From Isurus oxyrinchus (Eukaryota), in assembly GCA_026770705.1 (NCBI GenBank), contig JANJGN010000014.1:83018001-83082000 (forward strand): a DNA stretch of 64,000 bases. The letters are read 5' to 3'. Positions 1,824 to 49,050 of the stretch are shown here, one piece after another (the stretch's first letter is position 1; each line of letters begins with the position of its first letter). Made by a program: the position numbers and the translations under genes. Under the pieces are notes generated by a model. The model did no database searches. It had not been told where the DNA came from and was given only the letters and a program-made list of their open reading frames with translations.

Positions 1824-3326
1824 ATGACTGAATACACAGGCTAACAATGATTTAGATGGCCGTGCTTACCCACCTTCCCCTGAAGCTAATTGGGGATTGT
1901 TAAAAACTATTTGCTTTAAAATATGGAAGGACACTGCATTATCTAGTCACTTGGAAGCTGACCTGGATTTTTTTTAAAAGGGTCACTATTGGACTAGGAG
2001 CAAGCATGTCTTTTACAAGAAATCATCTGACCAGCAGGGTATTTGAGGAGGAAGAGCTGTTTGCTTGTTTGCTCTGCAATTGTTTAATGGATAGATAAAA
2101 ACTGGTTTAAAGGCAAAGGCTAGTGATTTACTAGAAATCACATGACAGGGATGAGCTTTAAGTCTTGAACTTGTTTTTGAGTTCAGTTGGGACTGAACTG
2201 AGAAAGTGAAAAGCTGCCCTTTTGCACTCCCTTTGCCATGCCTGAAATCATGTGATTTTCAATATCCAATAAAGCTCATATTAGTGGAACTTATCCATAT
2301 TTGGAAACCAAGAGGCTGAGATGAGGATTGATCCAGATCTATTTTCTTCCATGCCGAAGCACCATTGATGAGAACCTCCAGGACTCTACTGGGACTAACA
2401 ATCTGTCTTCACACGAGGGAACTTCAGATCGACAGTGTTGAAACACCATGAACTTTATCCTTTCTCTTTGATAGCATCTATTCTCCAAAGCCCATCTCCG
2501 ATTTTCACCATCCTTTTGTTTTTTTCCCATAATTTATATAGATCTTTCTTTTCCCACCTATTTCCATTATTTTTAAATGTATTTCCATCCATTGTTTTAT
2601 CTCTACCTTTTAGCCTTTTTCAATTTCTTCAGCCCACCCCACCCCCACTAGGACTATCTGTACCTTGCTCGTTCTGCTTTCTACCCTTAATTAGCACATT
2701 CCTTTAGATAATATCACCATCTTCAACACCTCTTTGTCCTTTTGTCTGTGACATCTTTTGGTTATCTCCACCTATCACTGGCCCTCTATCCAGCTCTTCT
2801 TGTCACCCCCCTGCCTTAAACCAACTTATATTTCACCCTTTTTCTATTTTTCCTTAGTTCTGTTGAAGAGTCATGCGGACTCGAAACATTAACTGTGCTC
2901 CTCTCCACAGATGTTGCCAGACCTGCTGAGTTTTTGTTTTTGTTCTTGTTTTTGTTTTGGACTTCCAGCATCCGCAGTTTTTTGCTTTTATCTGCAGAGA
3001 CCCTACCTGTTTGTCCTTTGTTTCTTTGTGTGTGTACGTGTGTTGGGAAACTTTAAAAGGGAAAAGATAGTTATGCTTCCAGATTGCAATTGTGTGTTAA
3101 CCAATTCTTGCAACTTGTTTTGAAAAAGTTTTGTTTTCTAATGAATCAATAATTCTGAGTTTATTGAAAGAAGCCTGGTTAAAGTGTATTTTATTTTGGG
3201 TCTAACTGTTACAAAGGTAAATAATTGGCCAATCTGGTGAGTGAATTAAACATTTAAACAAATAGCGTGACCAGGGGAGTAGTGGGGCTAGATAAACTGC
3301 GCACTCCTCCTATCCCGGTCGTAACA
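1824..3326 (+). mobile_element. Solo LTR (Gypsy-like), interrupted by a Penelope-type insert
   Basis: Ends ...ccggtcgtaaca. Colinear homology with 36860-38229 (ggaaggacactgcattat, tttaaaggcaaaggc, gagtttattgaaagaagcctggttaaag). Left edge approximate. Confidence 0.7.
2499..2990 (+). mobile_element. Penelope-like element 3'/pLTR fragment with hammerhead-like motif at 2856-2894
   Basis: Absent from the homologous LTR copy, where cccatctc/tgcagag is contiguous. Contains agtt-CTGTTGA-a-gagtc(atgcg)gactc-GAAAC-att-aact followed by ccacagatg..ccagacctgctgag..ttccagcatccgcagt. Confidence 0.75.
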
Positions 3327-9107: not shown

Positions 9108-10803
9108 CTACATCTTCTTAACCTTCCTAACCTTGCCGCTACATTTTGGTGCTCCCTGTACACCCACAGTGGAGGTGGAGGCAGCCTGCTGACTGCTACA
9201 CCCTGTCTGTGATGACCTTGATGTGCATGCTGTGGAGGGCCGAGACCTAGAAGGCCCTGGCCTGCTTTCAGGGTCCTGCTGTGTGGCAGTGGCACCTTCC
9301 TCAGCCTGTGGAGCTGGAACTGCTGAGGTTACAGGAAGAGGAGTTTCGGATGGACCAGTCACTCCCGGAGTCACCTGGGTGGATGGCCCTGCGGCGTGCA
9401 CCTACTGACCCTCCTCCCTATGGGTACCCAAGGGCCCCTCGCTGACTCTTTGAGGAGAAGAGGTAGCTGAAGTAAGATCAAGCTGCCCTGCACTCCTCTG
9501 GCATACACTGTGTTGGAGGCCAATGATGGCGTCAGCGATGGAGTTCAGCCCGCACAGCATTGCAGGAGTGACATCCTGGATCAAGGTGTCCATGGTGCCT
9601 GCGATCCTGCCAGTGTTGACCTCAGTGCATTGCATGCCAGTGCTATCACCTCAGACTGAAGGCAGACGGAGCCCTCCATCATGCCTTGCAACCTGTGGTG
9701 TGCAGCGGACCACTTTTCCTGATGTTCCTGAGCTTTCCGTTGCAGCTCCAGCAACTATGACATGACTGAGTCCAGGGGCTCATCATCTGACTCAGACTTA
9801 GGAAATTTCTGGCCTCCAGCCATCCTCTGAGTGCCAAAGAACTGGGAAGTCCCTGCCACCACTTGCTGTGGATCAGGAAATGTGATGTGATCACCAGATT
9901 GTGATCCCGAGGCTACTCTAAAGCTAGTTCCCACTGAGGCGTGTGTCTGTGTGCTGGTGGAGGGTGTGGGTGAGCGCTGTAATGGGACTTCAAGGAGGAT
10001 GCCTTCAGATTCCACTTCAGAGGTTTCTTCGGGGCTTGATTGGCGGCCCTGGGTCATGGAATCTGTCGGCTGTTTGGCAGATGTGCCTGCGAAAGCAAGG
10101 GGAGATAATTAGTGCATGGGAGTGGCCTGTGAAAAAGGACACATCACTCACGGCATGGTTGTCTGGTGGATGTTGCATTGCTGGATCCTCACTTCGTAGA
10201 ATGGTGCCAACCTCATCATCAGCACAGGAATGGTCCAGATCCTAGCCAGTCAGCTGGATGGCTCTGTTTTCAAAGTCCATGAAGAACTTGATTTCAGGCA
10301 TTCCTCCATCAGTCTGCAACCTCTCCCTCTTGTGTGCCAGTTTGTCCTGTGTGAATAGAGATGGAGAGAGTGTAAGCAGAATGCCTGCCAGGCCAGATGA
10401 TAAATATGCCTGGCATATGGCGGTGATTGGTCCCATGGACTGGATGAGGACAATGAAGGTGTGTGTGAGAGTGAATAGTGATGTCCCTTGAACCGGCAGT
10501 GAGTGAGGGCCTTGTGGATGCATGATAAGCTTGTGACTGTGTGAGTTGAGAGTAACTTACTCTGGTGGAACAAAGGAGATCATTCATCCTCTTGCAGCAT
10601 TGGGTAGCTGTCCTCTTTTCCAGGGTATTGGCGCTGACGACCACTGCCACTACCTCCCAAGCCGGATTAGTGATGTTTCTGCCTGTCCTGCGGCCAGAGC
10701 GAGGGTAAAGGACAACACGGCGAGCCTCCACTGCATCCAAAAGGTATTGGAGGGATGTGTGAGTGAATCTGGGTGCTGCAGTCTACTTGCTTTTCATGGC
10801 CAT
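9108..10803 (-). pseudogene. Harbinger Myb/SANT-like DNA-binding protein gene, 3 exons (approx. 10803-10561, 10346-10193, 10086-9108)
   Basis: LLDAVEARRVVLYP..AWEVVAVVVSAN..RTATQCCKRMNDL (Myb/SANT). GTAAGT donor at 10560; cacag acceptor at 10347; GTGAG donor at 10192; ttcgcag acceptor at 10087. In-frame stops present. Confidence 0.85.
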
Positions 10804-35613: not shown

Positions 35614-36820
35614 TGTCATTACTGCATCTGACGTGGACTAATTCATAGAGATTAATTGCTTTGTTATGGACAGGGGAGAAATGTCGGATAATTTCTCCCT
35701 TTTTCCCATCCCTCAACCAACCACAACAGCATGTATTTTAGAAAAGAGGTGTTTTAATCATTTGAGTTCTGTGATTTTAAGATCAGACACAAAACAGGCC
35801 TTCTGGTAAATTTAAATCAAAAGAACAGATAAACATTTATTTCTTACAACACCCCAAAATGAATGCAACAAGCACCTACTCCTTATTCACACAGACACAC
35901 ACACATGCACAAACACAAGCAAAGATGATTACCAAAAAAGGGCAGCATGCACTGATATCCTTAAGAAAAGTTCAAGAACATCAGTAATACTTCAGTCCTT
36001 CAAGATGGTTGTTGCAAATGTTATAGGGCCGGAAATTATCTTCTTCAGCAAACTGAAAGAGAAAATAAAGATTGGAGGTTTCTGGCGACAAACCCACAGT
36101 GGTACTCCAAGTAATAACAGGTGCCTGGCTTTTCAGCCAAAGTTGTGGTCAAACCTCTGTAGTGAAGAAATATAACAATGCAATTAAAATGAATTAACCC
36201 CATTTCTAAAACAAAAACAGAATTACCTGGAAAAACTCAGACAGTTCTGTCGAAGGGTCATGAGGACTCGAAACGTCAACTCTTTTCTTCTCCGCCGATG
36301 CTGCCAGACCTGCTAAGTTTTTCCAGGTAATTCTGTTTTTGTTTTGGATTTCCAGCATCCTCAGTTTTTTTGTTTTTAACCCCATTTCTATGTTATCGAT
36401 GTTTCCCATTGTCCATACAATGAGTTTATGGCAGATGTATTTGTCACATAATGGGAATGAGTAATATTCCATCAACATTCCAGCTATGATTAGCCTCTGA
36501 AATGTCTTTATTTGAAAATCCAGCTTCATGGGCCAGCAACTATTGTAGTCATTGTCATTTTAAATCCCTTCAATTGAAATAAAGAGGGGTAGTCAATCAA
36601 CACCTGGGAAGGTAAATTCCATTTTAAGTAATTTCCCAGAGAGAGGCCCAGACCTGTCTGTCTCTATCTATGCAGAAACCGCAGAAAATACCTATCTATG
36701 TAGAAAACACCCTCTGGAGCTCATTTTGTTAAGGTAAATTGTCCATAGTTTATGCTCCTTTCAAAAATAAAGTGACCATCTTCCTAATTAGGTTTTCAAA
36801 CATATGGGGTGACCATGACA
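35614..36820 (-). mobile_element. Possible solo LTR
   Basis: tgtcat...atgaca termini and a tttatt/CA-rich block like the 18266 LTR; no clean TSD. Confidence 0.35.
36209..36375 (+). mobile_element. Penelope-type mini-insert with 5' inversion and hammerhead motif (36243-36281)
   Basis: 15-bp TSD ttaaccccatttcta (36194-36208, 36376-36390). The first ~32 nt are the reverse complement of 36313-36346. Motif agtt-CTGTCGA-a-gggtc(atgag)gactc-GAAAC-GTC-aact. Confidence 0.85.
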
Positions 36821-36859: not shown

Positions 36860-38229
36860 TGTTAGAACTACATCTTCAAGAACTGTATTTTTCTTTGAAA
36901 ATTTGGAAGGACATTGCATTATTTGGACACTTGGTTTTTTTAAAAGTTTTTTTCATTAATTCACCTTGGCCTGTGAGCAAGCATGCCTTTAACAAATCAC
37001 CTGGTCTGCTTGGCACTTGAGGAGCAGAGCTATTTGCTATTTGAACCGCAATAACTTTAATTGTTGGGAAAAAAGAACAGTTTTAAAGGCAAAGGCCTGG
37101 TGATTTACTGGAAATCCCCTGACACAGCAGCTTTATGTTTTGAGCTTGTTTTCTTTGACCTCAATTGGGAATAAACTGAGAAAATGAAGCTGCCCAGTTC
37201 ACACTCTCCTTACCTTTACTAAAATAGAGTGGTTATCAATATCCAGCTAGGAATCCAAATCTCAGAGGAACTTGTCTGTCTTTGGAAACCTGAGTGACTG
37301 AGATGAGAAGGTTTGATCCAGCTCTATTTTCCTCCATGCCGAAGCTCAGTTGGTGAGAACTTCCTGACATCAAATGGGACTGGCAATCTGTCTTCACATG
37401 TGGGAGCTCTAGATTGACAGTGTCAAAACCATGCAAATTTTATCCTTTGTTTTATGGGGGAGGATTTTCCCCTCGTCAGGCGGCCGCGGCGGGCGGGCCC
37501 GGGAGCGGCTGTGCAATGGTCCACTGCCTGCAATTGGGCCCTGACCACGATTTCATGCTGGCTGGCCAATTAACGGCCAGCCGGTGTGAATAGTGTGCAG
37601 AAATGCTCAGCATTGCCTGGGTGGGAGGAGAGGAGGGCACGTGCGGAAGTCAGCATATGCATGTGGGTGCACTCACAAAAAGCTTCTTGAAGGCACAGAG
37701 CTGCTTTTTAATTGTTGGCAGGCTCACTGATGACCTTTGTGCACACCCACCGAACTAAACATCGTGCGAGTGCATTGATGATGTTGGGATGCTCGCCCAA
37801 AGTCATCCCATGCCATTTCACACTTTTGCGTGTTGGGCACAAGCCTGCATGCTGGTTGAAAAATTCAGCCCATGAAGCATTTTCATCCACTGCCCATCTC
37901 TGCAGAGACCCTATCCATTTGTCATTTGTTTGTTTGTTTATGTGTGTGTGCTGGGAATTTTAAGAGGGTTAGAGTGTCATATTTCCAGATTACAAATTAT
38001 GCAGTTCTTGCAAATTGTTTTTAAAAAGTAAGTTTTGTTTTATAATAAATCAGTCATTCCGAGTTTATTGAAAGAAGCCTGGTTAAAGATTCTTTCATTC
38101 TGGGTTTAACAGTAGCAAAGGTAATCATTGGCGATTTTGCTGAGTGATTTAAACTTTTAAACAAATGGTGCAACCTGCAGAGTAGTGAGTCTAGATCAAC
38201 TGCGCACTTCTCTCATCCCGGATGTAACA
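36860..38229 (+). mobile_element. Solo LTR (same family as 1824-3326) with nested MITE
   Basis: tgttag...gtaaca termini; 4-bp flanks catg/catt; aataaa at ~38044; colinear with 1921-3326. Confidence 0.75.
37457..37871. mobile_element. Harbinger-type MITE, internally deleted
   Basis: TIRs ggggaggatttt / aaaattcagccc with 3-bp TSD ATG. Confidence 0.85.
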
Positions 38230-41870: not shown

Positions 41871-43170
41871 TAATTTTAACATTAAGTAGCCACATATTGA
41901 TTTGGTGAGAGAAACTTCAGCTACACCAATAATTATGCCTTTGATCAGTCCACCAAAGTTTTCTATTCATGGTAACTTTAAGGTTAGTATAAATTCCAAT
42001 TTCTTCTCACTTTAGTTTTTGGCTTTTCCTTTTTCTCATCCTACCTGGCCATTTAACAAGCTGTAATAGAGTTTCTTAAGAAGCTTTAGATCATGTGTTA
42101 TTTACAGAATAACCCTTAACCCATCCTCTCCCCTCCTTGGGTTGGACAAATTTGTATTAGGAACCAAATACAGTTTGTTAATATAAATTCATTACAAACA
42201 AATAATTTCCTTTTATTACTTAAGAAATGAATTGCTTCATATAGCTACACATGATTAAGCACATCATACACATCATCATATCTAAGACTAAAGCCTAAGG
42301 TCTGGCTTTACTGAACTTGTTAATTCTATTTGGACCAAGTGAAATAGCAGAGAGGAAAAACAAATAGATTTGGGCCCCTCCCATTAACTCTCATTGACAG
42401 TAATATTTCTCCCATTAGGTCATTAATGGAAAAATGCAACCTTTTCTGATGATTTGGGTGCCATTAACATAGATATACTGGAAAACAGTCAAGTAGCTTC
42501 TGAGAGCCATTTGTACCTGGATGACCCAAGGACAGAAACTTATCAAGGTATGGTTGAGCTCCTTTCTTTGGCTACCCATCCGAAAAAGACAATGGTCCAT
42601 TCCGCAAAATATACATTTGTTCAAATAGGGCATCTGCAATTGATAATTGTTACTCAAACCTGAGGACATAGTGTCACCTAATCTTGTGTAGGTTGGCATT
42701 TGACCAGAGCTGATTTCCATGTGATTCGTTATACCCAGAGTAGAAGTTTAAAATACAAATCGTCCTGCTTACAGTGTGACTTAGAGCCTCAAAATACTTT
42801 TACCGAATTGCCTATGATAACTGAAAATGTTTAAGCTGTTCACTTTGTAGGTTTCCAGTTGTTATTTCTTATGACAGGAAAGCCTGTGTCCTTGGCATGA
42901 TAGAAAGTAACAGCTCATTTCAATTCATTAGGTAGAAGAAGTGCAAGCTGCTATAATGGAAAAAGATCATTTACATATCCTGATACTTGCTAATATCACT
43001 TTCTAATCAGCTTTAACTGTTAGCACACTTAGAATATTTTCTTGCCTAGAGCATGAGACCAACTTAATTATTGCATATCATTTGACTTCTTTGTTTTCTT
43101 GTGTTGATGGTGTATAGTAACCCAGAGGATTGCCATTAGTTTTCTTGAGATAATGCAAGTTTCTTGAATA

Positions 43171-43267
43171 CAAAAACAAAAATAGCTGGAAAAACTCAGC
43201 AGGTCTGACAGCACCTGTGGAGAGGAAGACAGAGTTAACATTTCGAGTCCGTATGACTCTTCATCAG
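43171..43267 (-). mobile_element. 97-bp Penelope-type micro-insert with canonical hammerhead core
   Basis: TSD agtttcttgaata / agtttgttgaata (43158-43170, 43268-43280). Minus strand begins CTGATGA-a-gagtc(atacg)gactc-GAAAT-gtt-aact. Confidence 0.8.
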
Positions 43268-43474
43268 AGTTTGTTGAATAGGTTGATTGTGTTTCTTTCT
43301 GTTTCAATTCTTACTCCATTATGGATGATAAGCTATCTACAAACAGAAGACAGAAGTTAAAGTTTATTACTCAGATTGGCAAAAGGTGGGAAGTGTTGTT
43401 CCACAAGGACCAGTGCTGGGATCACTGTTGTTCACCATTTCCATAAACTTTCTGGATTCAGGGTTTTATAAATA

Positions 43475-48970: not shown

Positions 48971-49050
48971 TCCACAGATGCTGACTGAGCTGCCAATTGT
49001 TTTCAGCATTTCATGTTCTTAAACTTCCAGTGTTTGCCATTTTTGATTTG
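48971..49050 (+). mobile_element. Degraded Penelope-type micro-insert
   Basis: tccacagatgctg...ttttcagcattt...ttccag resembles 2904-2990. Confidence 0.45.

What the first reader, a model, noticed from the sequence alone, without database searches (positions are those of the whole stretch)
36194..36390. Miniature Penelope-type mobile RNA with minimal hammerhead ribozyme (non-canonical core) and 5' inversion
Seen: a 167-bp insert with a perfect 15-bp TSD. It folds as a type I minimal hammerhead: stem I AGTT/AACT, core CUGUCGA, stem II GGGTC/GACTC, GAAAC, GUC cleavage triplet (after 36277). Its first 32 nt are an inverted copy of a downstream part, making a foldback around the ribozyme. The core has U instead of conserved A6 here and at 2860 (CUGUUGA), whereas 43267 has canonical CUGAUGA. 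Known: Penelope-like elements carry minimal hammerheads that act as dimers and often show 5' inversions. Inference: a family of 60-500-bp non-coding, ribozyme-bearing retroposons with a heritable A6U core variant.
Basis: partly seen in the sequence, partly recalled or inferred. Interest (0 to 1): 0.7.

Follow-up and report, generated by a model that had tools for sequence, protein, structure and literature searches.

The report
Penelope retrotransposon end, U6 hammerhead variant
This 167-base insert is likely the cut-short, partly inverted tail end of a very common Penelope-type jumping gene; its small hammerhead-ribozyme motif has U in place of a conserved A, a change that is likely inherited by many copies and predicted to weaken self-cutting.

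Summary
In detail: 15-nt TSD, 167-nt insert, 32-nt inverted arm and a minimal hammerhead with core CUGUCGA. The anatomy matches published Penelope-like element (PLE) insertions point by point: an extra base between positions 9 and 10.1, a palindromic stem III, an inverted 5' copy, and a 31-nt 3' tail that the arm lacks. Contigs from four runs show a very abundant family with shared 3' ends and many different 5' starts. That fits 5'-truncated PLE ends better than a fixed miniature element. No RT/GIY-YIG partner was found, and no genome was held to look for one. The inversion junction lies on an internal 7/8 inverted match, which suggests twin priming or snap-back. U6 is probably inherited: two of three window copies have it, and no T>A row at 36250 is among the 40 best-supported read differences (161 hidden; the ranking is inferred). 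I found no natural A6U in print, but a key paper was unavailable. Cleavage is untested, and the arm is predicted to block the ribozyme fold in this copy. The scan noted PLE minimal hammerheads before in other genomes, including a shark. Verdict: known element, modest new core variant.

The parts
36194..36208 (+). left target-site duplication (15 nt); its last 4 bases match the reverse complement of 36345-36348 at 3 of 4 positions
36209..36240 (-). inverted copy of element positions 36313-36344, lacking the 31-nt tail
36241..36249 (+). inversion junction: one extra base, then CAGTTCTG, which is complementary at 7 of 8 positions to 36305-36312
36243..36281 (+). PLE-type minimal type I hammerhead: stem I, core CUGUCGA (U6 at 36250), extra A 36254, stem II, GAAA, palindromic ACGU stem III, predicted cut after 36277
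   Evidence: consensus in PMC4209133
36282..36344 (+). body of the element's 3' end; A at 36315 is particular to this copy (96-100% of laid depth reads G in all four runs)
36345..36375 (+). 31-nt 3' extension present only on the forward copy (PLE 'tail'); the family end runs on in T's and overlaps the first TSD bases
   Evidence: table 7; PMC3846280, PMC8557442
36376..36390 (+). right target-site duplication
2499..2991 (+). related longer copy (about 493 nt; boundaries approximate): about 360 nt of pyrimidine-rich upstream sequence, core CUGUUGA at 2860, tail present; inserted into an older repeat
43171..43267 (-). related copy with CUGAUGA; starts at C3, ends within 3 nt of the tail-less boundary; 13-nt TSD with one mismatch at 43158-43170 / 43268-43280
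48971..49041 (+). decayed older 3' fragment, no hammerhead core
   Evidence: E 6e-05
16462..16524 (-). decayed older fragment, no hammerhead core
   Evidence: E 0.0018

Best explanation
The insert is likely a 5'-truncated, 5'-inverted copy of the 3' pseudo-LTR end of a very abundant Penelope-like retrotransposon, from a subfamily that likely inherited U at hammerhead position 6 and whose ribozyme is predicted to cut weakly or not at all. Shown: TSD, arm, 31-nt tail, motif, abundance of the family and its variable 5' starts. Inferred steps: (1) A PLE RT/GIY-YIG protein nicked both strands of an A+T-rich target 15 nt apart. (2) One nick primed reverse transcription at the tail end (about 36375-36378); the other primed at the second, tail-less start (about 36344-36348). 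(3) The two cDNA ends joined through the element's own 7/8 inverted match (36242-36249 with 36305-36312), which gives arm + forward piece. Snap-back of a single cDNA on the same match gives the same product. (4) U6 spread because insertion does not need hammerhead cleavage. (5) This copy is a dead end: it has no ORF, it is probably older than the split of organisms A and B, and the arm would sequester the ribozyme if transcribed.
For: The motif fits the PLE min-HHR consensus at every position except 6 (PMC4209133). An inverted 5'-truncated copy and a 30-40 bp tail on one end only are published PLE hallmarks (PMC8557442; a 31-bp tail and 8-10 bp TSDs in PMC3846280); here the arm lacks exactly 31 nt. 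Purified anole Poseidon protein nicks and extends both strands, starts at two RT sites that bound the tail, and inserts normally with hammerhead core mutants (PMC11167929); 35,392-48,729 contigs laid per DNA-type run; summed depth of millions in the insert against about 12-80 in the unique left flank; 3' ends pile at 36370 and 36378; 13 of 15 shown joints link the arm end to 13 different forward starts. The best match to the arm's continuation in 430 nt of the 2860 copy is at the hammerhead start, with one other 6/8 match. U6 is in 2 of 3 copies that are only 81% alike. No 36250 T>A row is among the 40 shown, whose smallest best-run share is 0.37. A6C lowers activity in natural hammerheads (PMC3088659; PMC7151607).
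Against: No RT/GIY-YIG ORF was linked: none of 102 ORFs of 90 aa or more hit GIY-YIG, and no genome was held. The U6 share is indirect: 161 of 201 difference rows were hidden, ranking by share is my inference, and A6 contigs may be clipped before 36250 (depth at 36251 is 20-63% of the mean depth in bin 36262-36285). The 13 joints have short sides (19-27 nt) and were laid at 80% likeness, so some may be alignment artefacts. Two of three window copies, and 4 of 12 shown rows of table 5c, start within a few bases of the hammerhead 5' edge, which could mean a preferred short unit. The effect of U (as opposed to C) at position 6 is not measured in any paper I could read. Contigs of organism B reach only 20 and 24 nt into the insert, under the tool's 31-nt bridging rule.
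Confidence: 0.72

Rival explanations
1. A distinct non-autonomous, SINE-like short element (about 135 nt from the hammerhead to the tail, or longer) that is transcribed on its own and moved in trans by a PLE protein.
For: The forward piece at 36242 and the 43267 copy both start at the hammerhead 5' edge. 4 of 12 shown rows of table 5c go to 36242-36243 with only 1-5 letters between. A 127-nt head-to-tail joint (36370 to 36244) is seen in 2, 3 and 1 contigs of three runs. pLTR-derived non-autonomous elements are published (preprint 10.64898/2026.07.22.740005; MRC1 in PMC8557442). No ORF partner was seen.
Against: The 2860 copy extends about 360 nt further upstream. 13 different downstream starts appear. 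The start at 36242 is explained by the internal 7/8 inverted match. The query itself begins its forward piece there, so only such joints can be listed. No tandem array at the locus.
Confidence: 0.17
2. The U6 core is a working ribozyme variant: it cleaves as a dimer with help from the PLE protein or with Mn2+, and selection keeps it.
For: All other core positions and both stems are intact in this copy. Stem II pairs in 3 of 3 copies, with a one-sided A-U to G-U change. Natural A6C cleaves with Mn2+ (PMC7151607). The anole Poseidon hammerhead cleaves only with protein (PMC11167929).
Against: No two-sided covariation in 3 copies. The double-hammerhead fold scores -11.3 kcal/mol against -18.4 for an alternative dimer (nearest-neighbour models handle such folds poorly). 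Even canonical min-HHRs cleave weakly; 8 of 9 frog retrozyme dimers did not cleave. Intact stems also follow from recent common descent.
Confidence: 0.2
3. U6 is only post-insertion decay that struck two copies in this window independently.
For: Only 3 core-bearing copies are in the window; the hidden rows were not seen; this copy has at least one private change (36315).
Against: It needs the same A-to-T transversion twice. If A were the family base, a T>A row near 100% should appear as the A>G row at 36315 does; none is among the 40 shown.
Confidence: 0.1

Closest known systems
Minimal hammerheads of metazoan Penelope-like elements (Cervera & De la Pena 2014, PMC4209133; parts 1-2 of 4 of the text and part 2 of 3 of supplement file 2 read)
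   Same: Type I, short stem I, extra base after A9, G10.1-C11.1 pair, palindromic loop-less stem III, U-rich upstream; mostly found as single motifs of truncated PLEs.
   Different: U at position 6. All 44 rows of the Fig. S3 alignment that I saw have A6; the printed consensus is CUGANGAH, and the authors note that their descriptor biases the catalytic boxes. Their reported core variant is U3-A8. No cartilaginous fish is among the rows seen.
Penelope/Poseidon insertions with inverted pLTR and tail (PMC3846280 passages; PMC8557442 passages; anole PAc, PMC11167929 parts 1-2 of 4)
   Same: Inverted 5'-truncated copy, about 31-nt tail on one end, TSD, A+T-rich target, 3' end about 90-125 nt after the hammerhead core.
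   Different: No ORF seen here, so the clade is not assigned; the TSD (15 nt) is longer than the 8-10 nt rotifer examples; no start codon at stem II as in PAc.
Natural A6C hammerhead of phage Bcep176 (PMC3088659 passages; PMC7151607 parts 1-2 of 4 and supplement search)
   Same: Natural substitution at core position 6.
   Different: C rather than U, one phage ribozyme with measured low Mg2+ activity; here a probably amplified animal repeat, activity unknown.
Non-LTR retrozymes (bioRxiv 10.64898/2026.07.22.740005, parts 1-3 of 5)
   Same: pLTR-related, non-coding, type I hammerhead, reported in one chondrichthyan.
   Different: Defined as tandem arrays; this locus is a single dispersed copy with TSD and inversion.

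Membership tests
PLE minimal hammerhead (min-HHR) | Core CUGANGA with A6 | tested here: not met
   CUGUCGA at 36247-36253; the consensus has A6
PLE minimal hammerhead (min-HHR) | Extra base between 9 and 10.1, G10.1-C11.1 pair, GAAA, palindromic 15.1-16.1, H17, stems I and II | tested here: met
   A36254; G36255-C36269; ACGU 36273-36276; C36277
PLE minimal hammerhead (min-HHR) | Compensatory covariation in stems across the family | tested here: inconclusive
   3 copies only: 0 of 9 pairs change on both sides, 1 on one side
PLE minimal hammerhead (min-HHR) | Self-cleavage as a dimer | not testable with these tools
   needs an in vitro assay; folding energies are not decisive
Rfam hammerhead families | Covariance-model match | tested here: not met
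   no hammerhead family among 7 matches with E up to 5; the A6 copy at 43267 is missed too
EN+ Penelope-like elements | Target-site duplication | tested here: met
   15 nt exact; 13 nt with one mismatch at the 43267 copy
EN+ Penelope-like elements | Inverted 5'-truncated copy next to the forward copy | tested here: met
   also in other copies, table 5
EN+ Penelope-like elements | Optional 30-40 bp tail on one end | tested here: met
   the arm lacks 36345-36375 (31 nt); the 43267 copy ends within 3 nt of that boundary; 119 contigs of X5 have loose ends behind 36345
EN+ Penelope-like elements | ORF with telomerase-like RT and GIY-YIG endonuclease linked to this pLTR | tested here: inconclusive
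   none among 102 window ORFs; no genome held; no related loci in two collections
Non-LTR retrozymes | Tandem array with a hammerhead in each unit | tested here: not met
   no tandem repeat at the locus; a rare 127-nt tandem joint exists elsewhere
Non-autonomous miniature element | Fixed 5' end and unit length | tested here: inconclusive
   inserts of about 97, 167 and 493 nt; 13 different starts, but some clustering at 36242-36247

The most novel reading that the evidence does not exclude
A highly amplified vertebrate Penelope subfamily has fixed U at hammerhead position 6 and still cleaves, as a protein-assisted or Mn2+-dependent dimer: a natural A6U ribozyme lineage present in many thousands of copies and invisible to CUGANGA descriptors. 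Side by side with A6 sister subfamilies in the same genome, it would test directly whether PLEs need ribozyme cleavage in vivo.
Probability: 0.2. Interest if true: 0.6.

Novelty: new variant of a known kind. Interest (0 to 1): 0.32.

Why it matters
The element and its inversion are ordinary PLE anatomy. What remains of value is U6. The role of the hammerhead in EN+ PLEs is called unclear in print (PMC8557442), and core mutants do not stop insertion in vitro (PMC11167929). A subfamily that amplified with U6 is a natural test. If it does not cleave, cleavage is dispensable in vivo; if it does, the tolerated core is wider than current descriptors allow and such motifs are undercounted. The junction on an internal inverted match also gives a concrete, checkable model for PLE 5' inversions.

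Tried and rejected
Rfam scan: no hammerhead hit. No whole genome held. Pfam on all 102 stop-to-stop ORFs of 90 aa or more: RVT_1 twice, DDE_Tnp_4, Myb/SANT and one weak DUF, no GIY-YIG. A six-frame scan with short recalled PLE motifs gave 6 unconvincing matches. A six-frame read-through Pfam scan was not completed, so short decayed PLE ORF pieces could be missed. Two family patterns found 0 loci in metagenome and viral contigs. No RNA holder listed; run X17 is only guessed to be RNA and its contigs say nothing on expression or cleavage. No empty-site joint among the 15 shown joints (62 hidden). Summed contig depth is not a copy number and is used only as 'very abundant'. Dimer folding energies were not decisive. 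Lunse et al. (RNA Biol, PMC5785218), the main survey of PLE hammerhead variants, was not held; it may already list U6. Paper searches for A6U, CUGUUGA or CUGUCGA with hammerhead listed no title or abstract start on a natural U6 hammerhead; I saw 25 of 145, 20 of 139 and 3 of 3 listings. Supplement file 1 of PMC4209133 could not be searched, and bioRxiv supplements are closed. Look-ups of earlier findings by sequence, by place and by the A6U words were empty. Rejected: chance origin of the motif and a tandem retrozyme at this locus.

Full report
Observation. An exact 15-nt repeat lies at 36194-36208 and 36376-36390 and brackets 167 nt; 2 of 1500 random positions gave as long a repeat. Bases 36209-36240 are the reverse complement of 36313-36344 with one mismatch. 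The motif reads AGTT, CTGTCGA, A, GGGTC-ATGAG-GACTC, GAAAC GTC, AACT. A descriptor with positions 6-7 left free hits 36247 and 2860 only, and nothing in 200 Markov controls. Rfam has no hammerhead match in the window. The predicted fold of the whole insert is a long hairpin (z -10.6 for 36205-36350) in which hammerhead stems I and II have probability below 0.01; in the isolated motif they reach 0.18-0.66.

Setting. The window is repeat-rich animal DNA with LINE-type RT pieces, a DDE_Tnp_4 piece and Myb/SANT pieces. No genome was held. Two more copies carry the core. One spans about 2499-2991, has CUGUUGA and about 360 nt of extra upstream sequence, and sits inside an older repeat whose homologue lies at 37264-37448 and 37899-38229. 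The other spans 43171-43267 on the minus strand, has CUGAUGA and a 13-nt TSD with one mismatch. The 43267 copy starts at C3, so it lacks the 5' strand of stem I. Two decayed 3' fragments lie at 48971-49041 and 16462-16524. None of the 102 ORFs of 90 aa or more hits GIY-YIG.

Family evidence from reads. I laid 4 of the 24 listed runs on 35950-36650 at 80% likeness: X1 (organism A), X5 and X12 (organism B), and X17 (organism A, guessed RNA). 48,729, 35,392, 41,499 and 2,614 contigs were laid. In the three larger runs summed depth is about 2-12 million over most of the insert and about 12-80 in the unique left flank; the tool warns this is no copy number, so I take it only as very abundant. Loose ends pile up behind 36370 (512, 518, 496, 44 contigs) and 36378 (311, 275, 263), and behind 36345 in X5 (119); 24 rows were shown and 1300 hidden. 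Of 15 shown joints (62 hidden), 13 link the arm end to 13 different forward starts between 36266 and 36333, one changes strand, and one goes back 127 nt (2, 3 and 1 contigs). The 13 have short sides (19-27 nt), so some may be artefacts. Organism B holds pieces 35950-36228 (5 differences) and 36352-36502 (3 differences) that enter the insert by 20 and 24 nt. This suggests, but by the tool's 31-nt rule does not prove, that the insertion predates the A/B split.

Position 6. Of 40 shown difference rows (161 hidden) two fall in the insert: 36315 A>G (96-100%) and 36251 C>T (36, 40, 45 and 22%). No T>A row at 36250 is shown. I computed shares for 28 of the 40 rows; the other 12 have X1 shares of 0.72 or more by inspection. 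The smallest best-run share shown is 0.37. Low-depth flank rows are shown while high-depth insert rows are hidden, so I infer ranking by share, and so that A at 36250 is below about 37% of the depth laid there. Against this: A6 contigs may be clipped before 36250, since depth at 36251 is only 63%, 20% and 40% of the mean depth in bin 36262-36285 in X1, X5 and X12. Even so U6 would be a large part of the family. Together with U6 in two copies that are 81% alike, I put inheritance at about 0.8-0.9. C>T at 36251 is a CpG site, so CUGUUGA may partly be decayed CUGUCGA (inference). Covariation cannot be judged from three copies: 0 of 9 pairs change on both sides and one on one side.

Mechanism. The arm begins 31 nt before the forward copy ends. 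Published PLE insertions have an inverted 5'-truncated copy and a 30-40 bp tail on one end (PMC8557442, passages; 31 bp in PMC3846280, passages). The anole Poseidon protein nicks and extends both target strands and starts at two RT sites that bound the tail (PMC11167929, parts 1-2). At the inner junction, the sequence that would continue the arm (reverse complement of 36305-36312, CAGGTCTG) matches the start of the forward piece (CAGTTCTG) at 7 of 8 bases. In 430 nt of the longer 2860 copy only two sites reach 6 of 8, and one is the hammerhead start. At the outer junctions the TSD end matches the reverse complement of 36345-36348 at 3 of 4 bases, and the family's T-rich 3' end overlaps the first TSD bases. 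I infer twin priming from the two RT starts, with the cDNA ends joined on the internal match. Snap-back of one cDNA gives the same product, and self-priming has been proposed for PLE inversions. These steps are inferred, not shown.

Ribozyme. Apart from position 6 the motif fits the PLE min-HHR consensus (PMC4209133); all 44 alignment rows that I saw have A6, under a descriptor that the authors say biases the catalytic boxes. Natural A6C has low activity (PMC3088659) and prefers Mn2+ (PMC7151607). I found no measurement for U6 in the searches, and could not read Lunse et al.. Canonical min-HHRs cleave weakly even as dimers, the anole one only with protein, and its core mutants still insert. 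The simplest reading is that U6 weakens a ribozyme that insertion does not need. A working variant is not excluded; the dimer energies (-11.3 against -18.4 kcal/mol) do not decide it.

Verdict. This works like, and has the insertion hallmarks of, a truncated EN+ PLE end. Membership is not complete because no ORF could be linked and A6 is not met. A separate miniature family is possible but less likely. The scan has noted PLE minimal hammerheads before on other DNA (e1-7858369, e1-7786987); A6U was met in no earlier finding. New variant of a known kind; interest 0.32.

Noticed in passing
window:2829-2857 (+): A long pyrimidine tract ending in AG lies directly before helix I of the 2860 copy, like a 3' splice site; in D. 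virilis Penelope the intron end maps to the 5' end of helix I (PMC4209133). Possible PLE intron end, untested.
   Followed up: partly
window:12819-12919 (+): Near full-length U6 snRNA copy (Rfam 94.8 bits) that runs into an A stretch instead of the U tail; probably a retrocopy.
   Followed up: no
window:22705-23034: Tandem of 2.1 copies of a 156-nt unit (94%), each with a weak tRNA-like match on the minus strand; probably a duplicated tRNA-derived SINE head.
   Followed up: no
window:7729-8064 (+), 10309-10782 (-), 18619-19050 (+): DDE_Tnp_4 and Myb/SANT fragments, with long inverted matches between 9788-10794 and 18649-19670: Harbinger-type DNA transposon remnants (family name recalled).
   Followed up: no
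window:36454-36645 and 36118-36189: Both flanks hold older low-to-moderate copy repeats (raised depth and many differences).
   Followed up: no
joint 36370 to 36244: Rare 127-nt head-to-tail tandem of the hammerhead-to-tail unit in three DNA-type runs; such tandems would be the natural dimer substrate and resemble a minimal retrozyme.
   Followed up: no
table 7, behind 36326: Many contigs (161, 164, 138, 16) diverge after 36326 with a shared different sequence, pointing to at least one further subfamily with its own 3' end.
   Followed up: no
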